A stretch of 8,522 nt of DNA from a virus (Duplodnaviria > Heunggongvirae > Uroviricota > Caudoviricetes). The position numbers and the translations under genes were made by a program. The stretch's first letter is position 1, and every line of letters starts with the position of its first letter. The stretch covers positions 1 to 8,522 of IMG/VR virus record IMGVR_UViG_2541047751_000016. One strand, given 5' to 3'. Positions 1 through 8,522 of the stretch are shown piece by piece. Below the pieces are notes generated by a model. The model was not told where the DNA came from and searched no databases. It saw nothing but the letters and a program-made list of their open reading frames with translations.

Positions 1-693
1 GAATGGCACGCTCTGGAAAAACGAGCACTGGCAGAAGGCTGGACACCATCGCGCTATCTTCTGACGCTATGCAATGAAGAACTCCTGTGGCGCGAGAGTG
101 AAAAACTGCGTCGTTATAAAAAGGAGGCCCGGTTGCCAGTTGCCAAAACGCTAAGCGAATACGACTTCAGTCAGGTGCCGGAACTGAATGGAGCTCAGTT
201 CCGGCAACTCTGTGAAACGACAGACTGGGTTGATGCAGGAGAAAACGTTCTGCTGTTCGGAGCCAGCGGGTTGGGGAAAAGCCATCTGGCGGCAGCGATC
301 GTGGATGGCGTAGTAGGCCAGGGCTACCGGGCCCGGTTCTACAGCGCAGGAGAGTTGTTGCAGGAACTACGTAAAGCCAGAGCGCAGTTGAAACTGAATG
401 AGCTGCTACTGAAACTGGATCGCTACCGGGTGATAGTGGTGGATGATCTTGGCTATGTCAAACGCGACAGCGCCGAAACGGGAGTACTGTTCGAGTTAAT
501 AGCGCATCGCTATGAACGTGGGAGCCTGGTGATAACCAGTAACCATCCGTTCAGCATGTGGGGCAGCATCTTCGTGGATGAGACTATGGCGGTGGCGGCG
601 GCAGACCGGCTGATCCATCACGGATATATGTTCGAACTGAAAGGTGAAAGCTACAGGAAAAAGACAGCGAAGGCAGTAACAAGCGCGACTTGA
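1..693 (+). CDS. istB: IstB-like AAA+ ATP-binding transposition helper of IS21 family (5'-truncated by window edge)
   Basis: Frame 1 is open from base 1 (EWHALEKRALAEGW...). Translation shows LPVAKTLSEYDF, Walker A GASGLGKSHLAAA, Walker B-like VIVVDDLGY, ITSNHPF and C-terminal DRLIHHGYMFELKGESYRKK, matching the IstB/DnaC-like family from memory. Confidence 0.9.
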   Translation, partial: EWHALEKRALAEGWTPSRYLLTLCNEELLWRESEKLRRYKKEARLPVAKTLSEYDFSQVPELNGAQFRQLCETTDWVDAGENVLLFGASGLGKSHLAAAIVDGVVGQGYRARFYSAGELLQELRKARAQLKLNELLLKLDRYRVIVVDDLGYVKRDSAETGVLFELIAHRYERGSLVITSNHPFSMWGSIFVDETMAVAAADRLIHHGYMFELKGESYRKKTAKAVTSAT

Positions 694-776
694 TGTCGCA
701 CTGAAGGGTGCGGCCAGTATAGTTGGCGCGAGTCGGCAAAACTAGTTGACGTCTAATAAGTGGTCATAGCAATACA
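1..776 (+). mobile_element. IS21-family insertion sequence, 3' portion (partial; left part outside window)
   Basis: istB reading frame runs off the left edge and stops at 691-693. Bases 694-776 contain two copies of TAGTTG(G/A)CG (720-728 and 743-751), resembling the multiple terminal repeats of IS21-family ends. Exact right terminus not resolvable; candidate CA termini at 765-766 or 775-776. Confidence 0.7.
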
Positions 777-984
777 AGGGATATCTGCATTTATCCTCTA
801 TGGATCAAGCTTATACCTGTTGTATCAAGGCGCGACATTTACGCCTTACACCAGTGATTACGGAACTCTATACGATGGTAGTGAAGACATCTCTATGGCT
901 TGGATCGTCTTTGGTTTATCTATGGCCGTGTCTGTTGTAGCAGACATCATTAAGGTAATTCTCGTCTTAACCTTCGCTGACTAA
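760..984 (+). CDS. Hypothetical small membrane protein, or 3' remnant of a gene disrupted by the IS insertion
   Basis: 74-codon ORF with GTG start at 760, no clear Shine-Dalgarno, and two in-frame stops just upstream (754-759). Two hydrophobic segments (AFILYGSSLYLLY; MAWIVFGLSMAVSVVADIIKVILVL). Lies across or just beyond the presumed IS end. Confidence 0.25.
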   Translation: MVIAIQGISAFILYGSSLYLLYQGATFTPYTSDYGTLYDGSEDISMAWIVFGLSMAVSVVADIIKVILVLTFAD

Positions 985-1063
985 CCCATAATCCCGGCAG
1001 CAATAGCTATCGGGATCCACTTCACATATCCCGCATAAAAAGCACTGAACAAGCAGACACCGA

Positions 1064-1150
1064 AAAAAATAAATATCCTTTGTATTCATTTGTTTATCAT
1101 TATTTCATCAAAAATAAATACCTTGGGTATTTACACAATAAAATACCTAC
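1064..1150. repeat. Three imperfect direct repeats of A-rich/ATA(T)CCT motif in AT-rich intergenic DNA
   Basis: AAAAATAAATATCCTTTG (1064-1081), AAAAATAAATACCTTGGG (1110-1127), AATAAAATACCTAC (1137-1150). Spacing about 46 and 27 bp, no supported coding frame. Confidence 0.4.
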
Positions 1151-1370
1151 AGTATTCTTTAGCCATCAGCAGGACGCTGGAAGCCAAACGGAAAAGATTG
1201 GCAGGCTCTTTAACATTGATGGGATTGTCCCGCCGAAATGCGGGAACCAAAGAGTAGTTGGCTTTGGGATTGGATGAATGAGCAGGCTGATGCTCGACCA
1301 ATGTATAAACAGCGCTCATGGCAAGCAGTAACCAATCTGCGCCTCAAGACAGCGTCACTGGTAGTGTGGG

Positions 1371-1404
1371 CGCTCTAACCAGTAAGCCGGAGTTCAGCAC
1401 CGGC
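1371..1404 (+). promoter_or_regulatory. Candidate nut-like site A: boxA-like CGCTCTAAC followed by a GC hairpin
   Basis: CGCTCTAAC at 1371-1379 (lambda boxA is CGCTCTTA(A/C)); 6-nt spacer; hairpin GCCGG (1386-1390) / CCGGC (1400-1404) with 9-nt loop. Sits 243 nt upstream of the N-like start; a TATAAA hexamer lies at 1304-1309. Confidence 0.3.
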
Positions 1405-1489
1405 CATCCAATCGCCAAAGTCAATTCCATAGGCGTTATGCAGCCGCCACCATATTCAAGAAAGCTGCACAAGAGGTAGGAGGATTTAT

Positions 1490-1505
1490 GTGAATACTTA
1501 CATTC
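1490..1505. promoter_or_regulatory. Palindrome TGAAT-N6-ATTCA (candidate operator) in the presumed pL region
   Basis: TGAATACTTACATTCA at 1490-1505 is a dyad with 5-bp arms. It overlaps a TTACAT (1498-1503) -35-like hexamer. Half-site GTATTCA/TGAATAC recurs at 1082-1088 and in the inverted repeat at 2930-2957. Confidence 0.2.
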
Positions 1506-1561
1506 AGTTGAGAGATTAATTAAATAGAACTGATCGAGCAGAGTCCATGAAGGCTCATAAA

Positions 1562-1591
1562 TGCTCTTCCATCCCCGTCTAATTGGCGGGG
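1562..1591 (+). promoter_or_regulatory. Candidate nut-like site B: boxA-like TGCTCTTCC followed by a 7-bp-stem pentaloop hairpin
   Basis: TGCTCTTCC at 1562-1570; hairpin CCCCGTC (1573-1579) / GGCGGGG (1585-1591) with one G-U wobble and loop TAATT (1580-1584). Sits 56 nt upstream of the N-like start codon. Confidence 0.3.
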
Positions 1592-1646
1592 AAGGAAACC
1601 ACTTTGTAATAAAAAAAATTCCAAAGTTGTTTCATCGGAGGTCAAC

Positions 1647-1946
1647 ATGACAGTAGTCATTACATATCTGGCTGACGATAACGCCAGAAATCGCCGCAGA
1701 GCACGCAGACAGGCTCAACGTGAACAGGCGATGCAAGAGCAGCGACTGGCGCGAAAAATTGCGCTAAAGCTCTCTGGTTGCGTCAGAGCAGACAAAGCAG
1801 CATCACTCGGAAGCCTTCTCTGCAAGAAGGCAGATGAAGTCGAGAGTAAACAGAATCGTATTTACTACCGCAAGCCACGCAGTGAAATGGGCGTGACTTG
1901 TGTTGGTCGCCAGAAAATGAAATTAGGCAGCAAACCACTTATTTGA
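1647..1946 (+). CDS. N: N-like transcription antitermination protein
   Basis: GGAGG at 1637-1641, ATG at 1647. N-terminal arginine-rich motif (DDNARNRRRARRQAQREQ) and C-terminus SKQNRIYYRKPRSEMGVTCVGRQKMKLGSKPLI closely resemble lambda N (ERKNQRTWYSKPGERGITCSGRQKIKGKSIPLI, from memory). First gene of the operon. Confidence 0.8.
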   Translation: MTVVITYLADDNARNRRRARRQAQREQAMQEQRLARKIALKLSGCVRADKAASLGSLLCKKADEVESKQNRIYYRKPRSEMGVTCVGRQKMKLGSKPLI

Positions 1947-2244: not shown

Positions 2245-2261
2245 ATTTGAGAGGAATTAAT

Positions 2262-2885
2262 ATGTCATCAATCCGCTTAACTACGAGAATGAAAGAGGAA
2301 ATCGCTCGTAACGCTTTAATTAAGTCTGGGGTTTTCACTGAACTTGAAGAAGTAACAAAGTTAAAGAACCAGCTTGCACTTGACGCCAGAGTTATTGCGT
2401 TTGGCGGTAAAAAGAAAACTGAGGAAGTGGATCAGTTATCATCCAAGTTGGTAGCTATAAGTGAAGAACTTGAAAAGATGGGATGTTCATTTTACTCATA
2501 CGATGTTCGTTCTACTTCAATTTATCTGACTGTATCTGGCAGAAGGGTTGGATGGCATTCATATGGGAAAGACGGCAACGGCGAAGATATATTGCTCCCT
2601 ACTCCGACCAAAGATAAATGCATGTTTGACGCAGAACACGAAATAACAGAAAGGTTTGATGAAATCTGCGCATTACAACAAAAACTTGAAGCAAAGAAAA
2701 AGGATATCGAATCAAATGTATGGGCTGCTTTAAACTCAGTCACAACAGTTAAGCGACTCATTGAAGTTTGGCCTGAAAGCAAAGAATTGCTACCAAAAGA
2801 AGCAGATAAAGCAAGTACAGCACTTCCTGCTTTACGGGTAGAAGATTTGAATAAGATGATTGGACTTCCTTCCGAGGCCGCATAG
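2262..2885 (+). CDS. Hypothetical protein (207 aa), no family recognised
   Basis: GAGAGGA at 2249-2255, ATG at 2262, long open frame. Product MSSIRLTTRMKEEIARNALIKSG...GWHSYGKDGNGEDILLPTPTKDKCMFDAEHE... Occupies the position of lambda ea10 between ral and cIII. Looks more AT-rich than its neighbours by eye. Confidence 0.75.
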   Translation: MSSIRLTTRMKEEIARNALIKSGVFTELEEVTKLKNQLALDARVIAFGGKKKTEEVDQLSSKLVAISEELEKMGCSFYSYDVRSTSIYLTVSGRRVGWHSYGKDGNGEDILLPTPTKDKCMFDAEHEITERFDEICALQQKLEAKKKDIESNVWAALNSVTTVKRLIEVWPESKELLPKEADKASTALPALRVEDLNKMIGLPSEAA

Positions 2886-6311: not shown

Positions 6312-6793
6312 GCAAGATTGATTATCAGGCACTGCGTGAGGCGGCAGAACGTGCAATTACGGCAATGGAACGCCTGTTAATGTTGCCAGTTGATGATGAT
6401 CTGATAAGCGAACAGGAACTTAAAGATTACGGTGTGGATATTGATGCGCTCAACGCCTTCAAATTTCTGGCCGGACCAGAAACCGTGCTGGCGCTGCTGG
6501 ATGAACGGGAAAGAAACCAGCAATACATCAAATCCCGCGACCAGGAGAACGAGGAAATTGCGCTAACGGTAGGGAAGCTGCGCGTTGAGCTTGAAGCAGA
6601 AAAACAGCGGGCAAAAGTTCTATTTATGGAAAATGCTCGGCTTAAGTCAGGCATAGCCGGTCTGATACACCTCGGTATTCGATATGCAGATGTTGAGGTC
6701 ATGAAAATTGCTGGAGATGCCCAGCTTTCTACCCCATGCACTGACAGCATCATAAACAGCATTGCAACAGGCATTCGCATCAAAGGAGAGTGA
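6308..6793 (+). CDS. Ead/Ea22-like family protein (paralog 2)
   Basis: AGGAGG at 6296-6301, GTG at 6308 overlapping the upstream stop (GTGA). N-terminus [16 protein letters not shown]... resembles proteins annotated Ead/Ea22-like in enterobacterial prophages (from memory); coiled-coil segment LTVGKLRVELEAEKQRAKVLFMENARLK. Confidence 0.65.
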   Translation: MSKIDYQALREAAERAITAMERLLMLPVDDDLISEQELKDYGVDIDALNAFKFLAGPETVLALLDERERNQQYIKSRDQENEEIALTVGKLRVELEAEKQRAKVLFMENARLKSGIAGLIHLGIRYADVEVMKIAGDAQLSTPCTDSIINSIATGIRIKGE

Positions 6794-6794
6794 T

Positions 6795-6992
6795 ATGGAT
6801 AAAAACACCACTGCTTACTGGAATCTGTCACTTGATACCGAATGCCCAAAATGCGGTCACAATTTCGATCTGCTTTGTGATGCTGATTTCTGGGAGTTTT
6901 CTGGAGCTAAACAGGCATGTGAAGAAATAAAAGGTTACGAAACATGCTGTCCAGAATGTAACCATGAATTTAAAACAGATTTCGTGTATTGA
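6795..6992 (+). CDS. Small zinc-ribbon protein (two CxxC knuckles)
   Basis: AGGAG at 6784-6788, ATG at 6795, 65 aa. Contains CPKCGHNF and CPECNHEF, an internally duplicated knuckle typical of zinc-ribbon/rubredoxin-like folds. Confidence 0.7.
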   Translation: MDKNTTAYWNLSLDTECPKCGHNFDLLCDADFWEFSGAKQACEEIKGYETCCPECNHEFKTDFVY

Positions 6993-8330: not shown

Positions 8331-8522
8331 ATGACCGATACCAGCCTGATTCCTGAGAAAGAAGTGATGAACAAGCTCGGTGTTTCATCACGTCAGACAA
8401 TCTGGAACTATACCAAACGGCACGGATTTCCGAAGCCAGTCAGAACCCACCCCAAATCATACCTTCGTGAAGCTGTTGAAGGGTGGATTCTTAACGGTGG
8501 CGTTAATCAGAAATGCTCCTGA
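8331..8522 (+). CDS. AlpA-family phage transcriptional regulator / putative excisionase (Xis-like)
   Basis: GGAG at 8319-8322, ATG at 8331, 63 aa. EKEVMNKLGVSSRQTIWNYTKRHGFPKPVR...YLREAVEGWI fits the AlpA-type winged-HTH pattern. Its position at the distal end of the early operon matches xis in lambdoid phages. Confidence 0.7.
   Translation: MTDTSLIPEKEVMNKLGVSSRQTIWNYTKRHGFPKPVRTHPKSYLREAVEGWILNGGVNQKCS

What the first reader, a model, noticed from the sequence alone, without database searches (positions are those of the whole stretch)
1..984. IS21-family element inserted immediately upstream of the prophage pL/N control region
The IS end lies about 870 bp upstream of the N-like start, where a lambdoid phage would carry its immunity or exclusion genes. 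The 760-984 ORF has two hydrophobic segments and could be the 3' remnant of a disrupted membrane gene. The insertion may have uncoupled the early operon from its repressor, which would make the prophage cryptic or deregulated.
Basis: partly seen in the sequence, partly recalled or inferred. Interest (0 to 1): 0.5.

Follow-up and report, generated by a model that had tools for sequence, protein, structure and literature searches.

The report
ISEc10 insertion in prophage gene hkaS
A common E. coli jumping gene (ISEc10) has landed in a small membrane-protein gene of unknown function next to a prophage's repressor gene; it destroys that gene but leaves the repressor and its DNA targets intact, so this is an ordinary event.

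Summary
Window 1-759 is the right-hand 759 bp of ISEc10 (IS21 family), 100% identical to copies in CFT073 and others. It carries the last 230 codons of istB.

I found the source scaffold (E. coli GCA_000457515.1, KE699786.1). The window begins 2 bp after a 1620-N scaffold gap that lies inside the IS.

Left of the IS lie the first 49 codons of the same gene, then an intact cI, OR, cro, cII and replication genes. Both junctions carry the 5-bp direct repeat GTGGT. Removing the IS and one repeat copy restores a 122-aa ORF, HkaS of phage HK620 (phrog_6534, function unknown, three predicted membrane helices). Window 760-984 is its 3' remnant.

cI is 237/238 identical to HK620 cI. tIMM, OL1-3, pL and nutL in the window are identical to HK620.

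The "disrupted membrane gene" reading is therefore right, and the "uncoupled from its repressor, cryptic or deregulated" reading is not supported. This is a simple insertion that knocks out the last gene of the cI transcript. HkaS shows no similarity to RexB or SieB and has no recognisable fold. Interest is low.

The parts
1..759 (+). Right-hand 759 bp of a 2411-bp ISEc10 (IS21 family). The rest of the element lies left of the window, mostly hidden in a 1620-N scaffold gap.
   Evidence: 100% identical to ISEc10 copies in CFT073 and others. The end is defined by comparing 5 contexts. The source scaffold L008 carries the IS at 6638-9113, with its sequenced parts identical to the CFT073 copy.
1..693 (+). 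istB, 3' part: residues 22-251 of the 251-aa AAA+ helper ATPase, plus the stop codon.
   Evidence: Pfam IstB_IS21 E 1e-59. Walker A at fragment residue 87 and Walker B at 144. The fragment is the exact C-terminus of CFT073 IstB.
694..759 (+). Right terminal region of ISEc10, containing the imperfect terminal inverted repeat (about the last 50 bp, ending ...GTTGACGTCTAATAA).
   Evidence: Alignment of the first 70 bp of the IS with the reverse complement of the last 70 bp.
760..764 (.). Right copy of the 5-bp target-site duplication GTGGT. The left copy is at L008 6633-6637, outside the window.
   Evidence: Left junction ...attctaGTGGT|TATGAGACG and right junction ...CGTCTAATAA|GTGGTcatagc. CFT073 and MS 21-1 copies have duplications of the same length, GCAAC and GCGTT.
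760..984 (+). 3' remnant of hkaS (codons 49-122 of 122). The apparent GTG start is codon Val49, carried in the duplicated target. No Shine-Dalgarno sequence precedes it.
   Evidence: Aligns with intact hkaS of E. coli SJC33 and phage HK620. The rejoined ORF is 122 aa, 1 aa different from SJC33.
991..1016 (+). Predicted RNA hairpin just after the hkaS stop codon (AUCCCGG.AGC....GCU.UCGGGAU), with no U-tract. It may be the 3' end structure of the cI-hkaS transcript.
   Evidence: It is the only element kept in the centroid fold. The region as a whole folds no better than shuffles (z -0.74), so this is weak evidence.
1067..1097 (+). tIMM, the terminator of the cI transcript as annotated in HK620.
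   Evidence: 0 mismatches to the HK620 feature. The simple terminator scan did not detect it, so it rests on the HK620 authors' annotation.
1094..1157 (+). Left operators OL3 (1094-1110), OL2 (1116-1132) and OL1 (1141-1157).
   Evidence: 0 mismatches to the HK620 annotated operators.
1130..1165 (+). pL, the early leftward promoter (TTTACA-17-TATTCT).
   Evidence: 0 mismatches to HK620 pL. It is the only sigma-70-like site found in 650-1750.
1204..1245 (+). nutL (boxA/boxB), the N-utilisation site.
   Evidence: 0 mismatches to the HK620 nutL feature.
1647..1946 (+). N-like antiterminator gene (99 aa), the first gene of the pL operon.
   Evidence: phrog_271 'anti-termination protein N-like', E 8e-36. 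Pfam N_peptide gives only 17.6 bits, below the 27.9-bit cut-off.

Best explanation
A single copy of the active E. coli insertion sequence ISEc10 (IS21 family, 2411 bp, istA-istB) transposed into codon 50 of hkaS and duplicated 5 bp of target (GTGGT).

hkaS is the 122-aa, three-helix membrane-protein gene that follows the repressor gene cI in an HK620-immunity, P22-like prophage integrated beside sbcB in E. coli. The IS has the same orientation as cI, hkaS, pL and N.

Shown:
- The insertion splits hkaS into a 5' piece (50 HkaS residues plus MRRQ, then a stop) and a promoterless 3' piece without a ribosome-binding site (window 760-984).
- It deletes nothing.
- cI, OR1-3, cro, cII, tIMM, OL1-3, pL, nutL and N are all present and essentially identical to phage HK620.

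Inferred:
- HkaS is lost.
- The repressor is still made from pRM and still binds OL and OR in trans, so the early left operon stays under normal immunity control and the insertion itself does not make the prophage cryptic.
- Secondary effects are possible and probably small. The cI transcript now runs into the IS instead of ending at tIMM. The OR-OL distance grows from about 1.2 kb to about 3.6 kb.
For: - IS identity and end.
- Source scaffold found, with the window identical over 8522/8522 bases.
- Both junctions with a matching 5-bp GTGGT repeat, and the sequenced 95 bp (left) and 761 bp (right) of the IS identical to the CFT073 copy.
- The rejoined ORF equals 122-aa HkaS: 1 aa different from E. 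coli SJC33 and 5 aa from HK620.
- hkaS follows cI directly in uninterrupted relatives and in a 59%-identical Salmonella homolog in three contexts.
- hkaS is uninterrupted in all 146 complete E. coli genomes that carry it.
- cI is 237/238 identical to HK620 cI, and the OR region is identical.
- tIMM, OL1-3, pL and nutL have 0 mismatches.
- No other pseudogene is evident among the called genes of the 20.3-kb locus, from the nin region to int.
- ISEc10 is documented as actively transposing in E. coli CFT073 (PMC7482066).
- From my own knowledge, not checked here: lambda rex::Tn5 phages carry a transposon at the equivalent place downstream of cI and keep a working (cI857) repressor.
Against: - The middle of the IS (about 1555 bp, including nearly all of istA) is a run of N in the public scaffold, so the two IS ends are joined by scaffolding and not by continuous sequence.
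- No expression data were available. An ISEc10 insertion just 3' of lpp lowered lpp mRNA 6-10 fold (PMC7482066), so some reduction of cI expression cannot be excluded.
- The late and structural half of the prophage could not be fetched, so the prophage may be defective for unrelated reasons.
- tIMM is taken from the HK620 annotation and was not detected by the terminator scan.
Confidence: 0.9

Rival explanations
1. One reading: the IS separated the pL/N early operon from its repressor or immunity genes, so the prophage is cryptic or deregulated.
For: The IS does lie between cI and pL. The window alone shows no repressor gene.
Against: - cI is intact and 99.6% identical to HK620 cI, 166 bp upstream of the insertion point.
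- The operators and pL are identical to HK620.
- The repressor acts in trans, so physical separation by 2.4 kb does not uncouple it.
- A 5-bp target duplication and perfectly rejoining flanks show that nothing was deleted.
Confidence: 0.04
2. A quantitative version of the same idea. The insertion weakens lysogenic control without abolishing it. cI mRNA loses its native 3' end (tIMM) and becomes less stable, or cooperative OR-OL looping is weakened by tripling the distance. Spontaneous induction rises or immunity becomes leakier.
For: - ISEc10 inserted 3' of lpp reduced lpp mRNA 6-10 fold (PMC7482066).
- The OR3-OL3 distance is 1222 bp in HK620 and becomes about 3638 bp with the IS plus the duplication.
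- From my own knowledge: lambda CI forms OL-OR loops that sharpen repression.
Against: - There is no expression or induction data.
- From my own knowledge: lambda looping still operates at 3.8 kb, and lambda rex::Tn5 lysogens are stable.
- It is unknown whether HK620-type cI loops at all.
- The prophage has persisted in the genome with every sequenced early gene intact.
Confidence: 0.15
3. Assembly artefact or IS-mediated rearrangement. The left and right IS ends belong to two different ISEc10 copies that the scaffolder joined, and the true neighbour of the window is elsewhere in the genome.
For: A 1620-N gap sits inside the IS. ISEc10 is multicopy in many E. coli genomes, with up to 22 places per genome.
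Against: - Both flanks carry the same 5-bp repeat GTGGT and are the two exactly complementary halves of one 122-aa gene. Recombination between two unrelated copies would not give this.
- The gap size (1620) is close to the missing IS length (1555).
Confidence: 0.03

Closest known systems
ISEc10 (IS21 family), as in E. coli CFT073 and many plasmids and chromosomes
   Same: Nucleotide sequence is identical over all 856 sequenced bases. It has the same istB, the same imperfect terminal repeats and the same 5-bp target duplication length as copies inside CFT073 and MS 21-1 prophage genes (ead/Ea22-like, terminase small subunit).
   Different: Only the insertion site differs. No complete E. coli genome of the 5,426 searched has ISEc10 in hkaS. 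istA of this copy is not sequenced.
Immunity region of phage HK620 (AF335538; Lederbergvirus): cro-OR-cI-hkaS-tIMM-OL/pL-nutL-N
   Same: Same gene order. cI is 237/238 identical, OR is identical, and tIMM, OL1-3, pL and nutL are identical. HkaS is 117/122 identical after reconstruction.
   Different: hkaS is split by the IS. About 400 bp of unrelated mosaic sequence lies between nutL and N (1246-1646). Downstream genes differ (ral, Nmad5, RecT instead of hkaQ, hkaP and others).
Lambda rexA-rexB, and transposon insertions in it such as lambda rex::Tn5 (the latter from my own knowledge)
   Same: Same slot: accessory gene(s) directly downstream of cI and upstream of OL/pL, co-oriented with cI. 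RexB is also a small multi-helix membrane protein. An insertion there leaves repressor function intact.
   Different: HkaS has no sequence similarity to RexB (E 3.9) or SieB (no alignment). There is no RexA-like partner and no PADLOC hit. No exclusion phenotype is known for HkaS.

Membership tests
IS21 family / ISEc10 | Helper gene istB encoding an AAA+ ATPase (IstB_IS21 domain with Walker A and B motifs) at the 3' side of the element | tested here: met
   Pfam PF01695 E 1e-59. GASGLGKS and VIVVDD motifs present, and the fragment is the exact C-terminus of CFT073 IstB.
IS21 family / ISEc10 | Transposase gene istA directly upstream of istB and overlapping it | tested here: inconclusive
   In this genome istA lies in the 1620-N scaffold gap. 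It is present (1500 bp, overlapping istB by 4 bp) in the sequence-identical CFT073, pEC316_3 and MS 21-1 copies.
IS21 family / ISEc10 | Imperfect terminal inverted repeats | tested here: met
   The first 50 bp or so align with the reverse complement of the last 50 bp or so (TATGAGACGACAA / TATTAGACGTCAA ... GCGCC-A-TAT-CTGGCC).
IS21 family / ISEc10 | Short direct target-site duplication (4-8 bp for the family, from my own knowledge of ISfinder descriptions) | tested here: met
   GTGGT at both junctions. GCAAC and GCGTT at two other copies. One plasmid copy had only a 3-4 bp repeat, in a frameshifted gene.
IS21 family / ISEc10 | Near-identity of DNA to the named element | tested here: met
   759/759 and 95/95 bases identical to copies that RefSeq/PGAP annotates as 'IS21-like element ISEc10 family'. 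The ISfinder reference itself was not available.
Lambdoid (HK620-type) immunity region | cI-type repressor with an HTH and a LexA-like S24 peptidase domain, divergent from cro across a tripartite OR | tested here: met
   L008 5755-6471 carries HTH_3 plus Peptidase_S24. It is 237/238 identical to HK620 cI, and OR1-3 and cro are identical. All of this lies outside the window, left of the IS.
Lambdoid (HK620-type) immunity region | Tripartite OL overlapping pL, followed by nutL and an N antiterminator gene | tested here: met
   0 mismatches to HK620 OL1-3, pL and nutL. pL was also found by the promoter scan. N matches phrog_271 at E 8e-36. None of the functions was tested.
Rex/Sie-type superinfection exclusion genes (candidate filing for HkaS) | Sequence or fold homology to RexB, SieB or any catalogued defence protein | tested here: not met
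   BLASTP against lambda RexB gives E 3.9, and against SieB no alignment. PADLOC: 0 families. Foldseek on BFVD and PDB: best E 0.43 and 0.71. Pfam: none above cut-off.
Rex/Sie-type superinfection exclusion genes (candidate filing for HkaS) | Located in the prophage-expressed cI transcript, between cI and its terminator | tested here: met
   hkaS starts 17-20 bp after the cI stop and ends before tIMM in HK620, SJC33, the source genome and three Salmonella-type contexts. Co-transcription is inferred and was not measured.
Rex/Sie-type superinfection exclusion genes (candidate filing for HkaS) | Excludes or aborts infection by other phages | not testable with these tools
   No experimental data were found. 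'hkaS' does not occur as a phage gene name in the searched literature.

The most novel reading that the evidence does not exclude
HkaS (phrog_6534) is an uncharacterised, lysogen-expressed three-helix inner-membrane protein that travels strictly with one cI immunity type. It may act as a new kind of superinfection-exclusion or abortive-infection factor in the rex slot. This strain would then be a natural hkaS knockout, through selection against HkaS or through drift, and could be compared with hkaS+ lysogens.
Probability: 0.3. Interest if true: 0.35.

Novelty: already known. Interest (0 to 1): 0.12.

Why it matters
It matters little in itself. IS elements often land in prophage accessory genes, and both the IS (ISEc10) and the phage control region (HK620 type) are already described.

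There are two practical lessons:

- A window that starts at a scaffold gap inside a repeat can make an intact immunity region look missing.
- The disrupted gene, hkaS, belongs to a small, conserved and wholly uncharacterised family that occupies the position of lambda rex. It is a reasonable candidate for a prophage-encoded exclusion function, and this strain is a ready-made null allele.

Tried and rejected
**Searches that led nowhere**
- An exact 36-bp junction pattern (window 745-780) found nothing in genome contigs, viral contigs or metagenome contigs.
- No complete E. coli genome or phage record contains the junction.
- Exact-protein look-ups with the 74-aa remnant and with a 208-aa version of the Nmad5 protein found nothing. 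The look-up with the 99-aa N-like protein succeeded.
- Rfam at E<=1 gave only a chance-level hit elsewhere in the window.
- The literature search for 'hkaS' returned only fungal herbarium codes and unrelated HK620 papers.

- The first Pfam call used the wrong frame.
It was repeated with P0001, which is 99% identical.

**Ideas rejected**
- An outward hybrid promoter at the IS right end driving N. The end carries TTGACG at 746-751, but no acceptable -10 follows, the scan found only pL, and tIMM lies in between.
- The 760-984 ORF as an intact gene. All 146 E. coli copies, HK620 and the Salmonella homologs are 122 aa.
- RexB or SieB homology.

**Ambiguity resolved**
- The terminator scan did not find tIMM, and the RNA fold of 975-1110 is no better than shuffles.
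- The CFT073 and MS 21-1 copies could not decide between an IS end at 758 and one at 759, so the target duplication could have been 6 bp or 5 bp. The window's own junctions settled it: only 5 bp (GTGGT) are repeated, and the IS ends at 759.

Full report
**1. What is in the window**

Window 1-693, read in frame 1, encodes 230 residues that match Pfam IstB_IS21 (E 1e-59). The Walker A motif (GASGLGKS) and Walker B motif (VIVVDD) are present, and the fragment is the exact C-terminus of the 251-aa IstB of E. coli CFT073. Window 1-759/760 is 100% identical to copies that RefSeq annotates as 'IS21-like element ISEc10' in CFT073 and many other E. coli chromosomes and plasmids. In all, 588 records match.

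I fetched four copies from unrelated contexts: CFT073, plasmid pEC316_3, MS 21-1 and OkiPb01684. All share sequence up to ...GTTGACGTCTAATAA, which is window 759, and diverge from the next base. The complete element in CFT073 is 2411 bp, with istA (1500 bp), istB (756 bp) and imperfect terminal inverted repeats of about 50 bp.

**2. What lies to the right of the IS**

From 759/760 onward the window matches lambdoid prophages of E. coli and phages such as HK620 and HK140.

In two uninterrupted relatives, E. coli SJC33 (L001) and phage HK620 (L002, AF335538), the order is cro, OR, cI, a 122-aa gene, tIMM, OL3/OL2/pL/OL1, nutL, N. The 122-aa gene is named hkaS ('unknown') in HK620. The match to the window begins inside this gene.

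Window 760-984 is therefore codons 49-122 of hkaS and not a gene in its own right. Its apparent GTG start is the Val49 codon.

Every regulatory feature that the HK620 authors annotated in this interval is present in the window with zero mismatches:

| Feature | Window coordinates |
|---|---|
| tIMM | 1067-1097 |
| OL3 | 1094-1110 |
| OL2 | 1116-1132 |
| pL | 1130-1165 |
| OL1 | 1141-1157 |
| nutL | 1204-1245 |

pL (TTTACA-17-TATTCT) is also the only sigma-70-like site that the scan found between 650 and 1750. The N-like gene at 1647-1946 matches phrog_271 at E 8e-36.

**3. What lies to the left of the window**

The junction sequence is absent from the species-representative genomes, IMG/VR, the metagenome contigs and all complete E. 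coli genomes. An exact-protein look-up with the N-like protein returned NCBI assembly GCA_000457515.1, scaffold KE699786.1 (L008). The window is identical to L008 8355-16876, with 0 mismatches in 8522 bases.

The window starts two bases after a run of 1620 N (L008 6733-8352), which is a scaffold gap. Left of the gap are 95 bp identical to the ISEc10 left end, and left of those is the 5' part of hkaS. The missing part of a 2411-bp element would be 1555 bp, close to the 1620-N estimate.

The two junctions read:

- left: ...ttcatgattctaGTGGT|TATGAGACG...
- right: ...CGTCTAATAA|GTGGTcatagc...

This is a 5-bp target-site duplication, the same length as at the CFT073 copy (GCAAC) and the MS 21-1 copy (GCGTT).

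Deleting the IS and one GTGGT copy restores a 122-codon ORF. It differs from SJC33 HkaS at one residue (I50V, within the duplicated bases) and from HK620 HkaS at five. The interrupted 5' piece now encodes 50 HkaS residues plus MRRQ and a stop.

**4. State of the immunity region**

Directly left of hkaS in L008 is a 238-aa HTH_3 plus Peptidase_S24 repressor. It is 237/238 identical to HK620 cI.

The cro-OR-cI stretch is identical to HK620 across the operators. cro, cII, an O-like gene, a DnaB-type helicase and nin genes follow.

To the right, N, ral, an Nmad5-family gene, RecT, Gp157 and the rest run to a 392-aa integrase next to sbcB and plaP. The sbcB-plaP flank is 99.9% identical to E. coli, which identifies the host.

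Within these 20.3 kb the IS is the only visible lesion. The late half of the prophage could not be retrieved.

**5. Mechanism and consequences**

*Shown.* This is a simple, conservative-looking insertion: matching duplication, no loss of flanking sequence. It sits in the last gene of the cI-hkaS unit, and the IS has the same orientation as cI, hkaS, pL and N.

*Inferred.*

- HkaS is inactivated. The break is in the second of its three hydrophobic helices.
- cI lies upstream of the break and its product acts in trans on intact operators, so the early left operon should remain repressed in the lysogen.

*Residual possibilities.*

- The cI mRNA now reads into the IS instead of ending at tIMM. ISEc10 inserted 3' of lpp reduced lpp mRNA 6-10 fold in CFT073 (PMC7482066).
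- OR and OL are now about 3.6 kb apart instead of 1.2 kb. This might weaken any cooperative looping.
- From my own knowledge, lambda tolerates both a 3.8-kb operator spacing and transposons in rex (lambda rex::Tn5) without losing repression. I therefore rate a noticeable deregulation at about 15%.
- Transcription leaving the IS rightward is unlikely to matter. No hybrid promoter is evident, and the native terminator region that already insulates pL from pRM transcription is still in place.

**6. What HkaS is**

The family is small: 11 clusters at 90% identity, from E. coli, Hafnia and Salmonella. All are named 'hypothetical', and none has a Pfam domain. It corresponds to phrog_6534, 'unknown function' (E 1e-78).

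hkaS occurs, always uninterrupted, in 146 of 5,426 complete E. coli genomes. A Salmonella homolog only 59% identical sits in the same place, about 20 bp after a 238-aa cI-type repressor and before N, in three otherwise different prophages. The linkage to this repressor type is therefore conserved.

An AlphaFold2 model is confident (mean pLDDT 91.3). It shows helices at 2-29, 31-38, 41-74 and 89-121, and a short beta-hairpin between the last two.

Foldseek finds nothing meaningful in BFVD (best E 0.43) or the PDB (best E 0.71). There is no similarity to lambda RexB or SieB and no PADLOC family.

The rex-like reading is a positional analogy only. An exclusion or lysogenic-conversion role is plausible but untested.

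**7. Verdict**

The IS21 family assignment and the disrupted membrane gene are right. Uncoupling from the repressor is not supported.
- The element is ISEc10 itself and the control region is that of HK620, so nothing here is a new kind of system.
- The only mildly interesting by-product is the uncharacterised HkaS family and this natural null allele.
- Interest is low, at 0.12.

Noticed in passing
window 1 (= L008 8355); L008 6733-8352: The window begins two bases after a 1620-N scaffold gap that lies inside the IS. That is why the repressor side looked 'missing' to a reader of the window alone.
   Followed up: yes
window 1246-1646: About 400 bp between nutL and the N start is absent from HK620, giving a pL-to-N leader of about 480 nt. 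It is mosaic: 1246-1425 matches IME10 and Stx2c phages, and 1413-1646 matches the CUS-3 'bsq5 boundary sequence'. No gene is annotated there in relatives. The 53-aa ORF at 1318-1479 has no PHROG or Pfam match, and there is no Rfam hit. By eye there is a CCCCG...CGGGG hairpin near 1584-1603.
   Followed up: partly
window 2247-2885: An Nmad5-family 'nucleotide modification associated' protein (Pfam E 8e-72) is encoded directly downstream of the anti-restriction gene ral (2025-2225). The two may form an anti-defence pair in the early left operon.
   Followed up: no
window 1647-1946: The N-like antiterminator is below Pfam's N_peptide cut-off (17.6 against 27.9 bits) but matches phrog_271 strongly. 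RefSeq calls it 'hypothetical protein' in most relatives.
   Followed up: partly
window 763 (and L008 6636): Both copies of the target duplication read GTGGT, where all relatives examined have GTGAT (Ile50 to Val). The polymorphism was therefore present in the target before insertion.
   Followed up: yes
L007 9076-9435 and L009 9076-9435: Other prophages that share the identical N protein have a repressor gene called as only 119 aa (Peptidase_S24 alone, no HTH), whereas L010 has 216 aa. These repressors may be N-terminally truncated or miscalled.
   Followed up: no
window 6762-6992: A 76-aa ORF with two CxxC pairs (CPKC...CPEC) and a weak Rad50 zinc-hook hit (E 7e-4, below cut-off). It is probably a small zinc-ribbon protein of unknown role.
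   Followed up: no
window 8331-8522; L008 16857-18035: The last ORF of the window is a weak AlpA/HTH_17-like protein, probably the excisionase, followed by a 392-aa integrase. The prophage is integrated next to sbcB and plaP.
   Followed up: partly
L004 (plasmid pEC316_3), ISEc10 junctions: This ISEc10 copy, inside a frameshifted HEPN nuclease gene, has only a 3-4 bp direct repeat at its ends instead of 5 bp.
   Followed up: no
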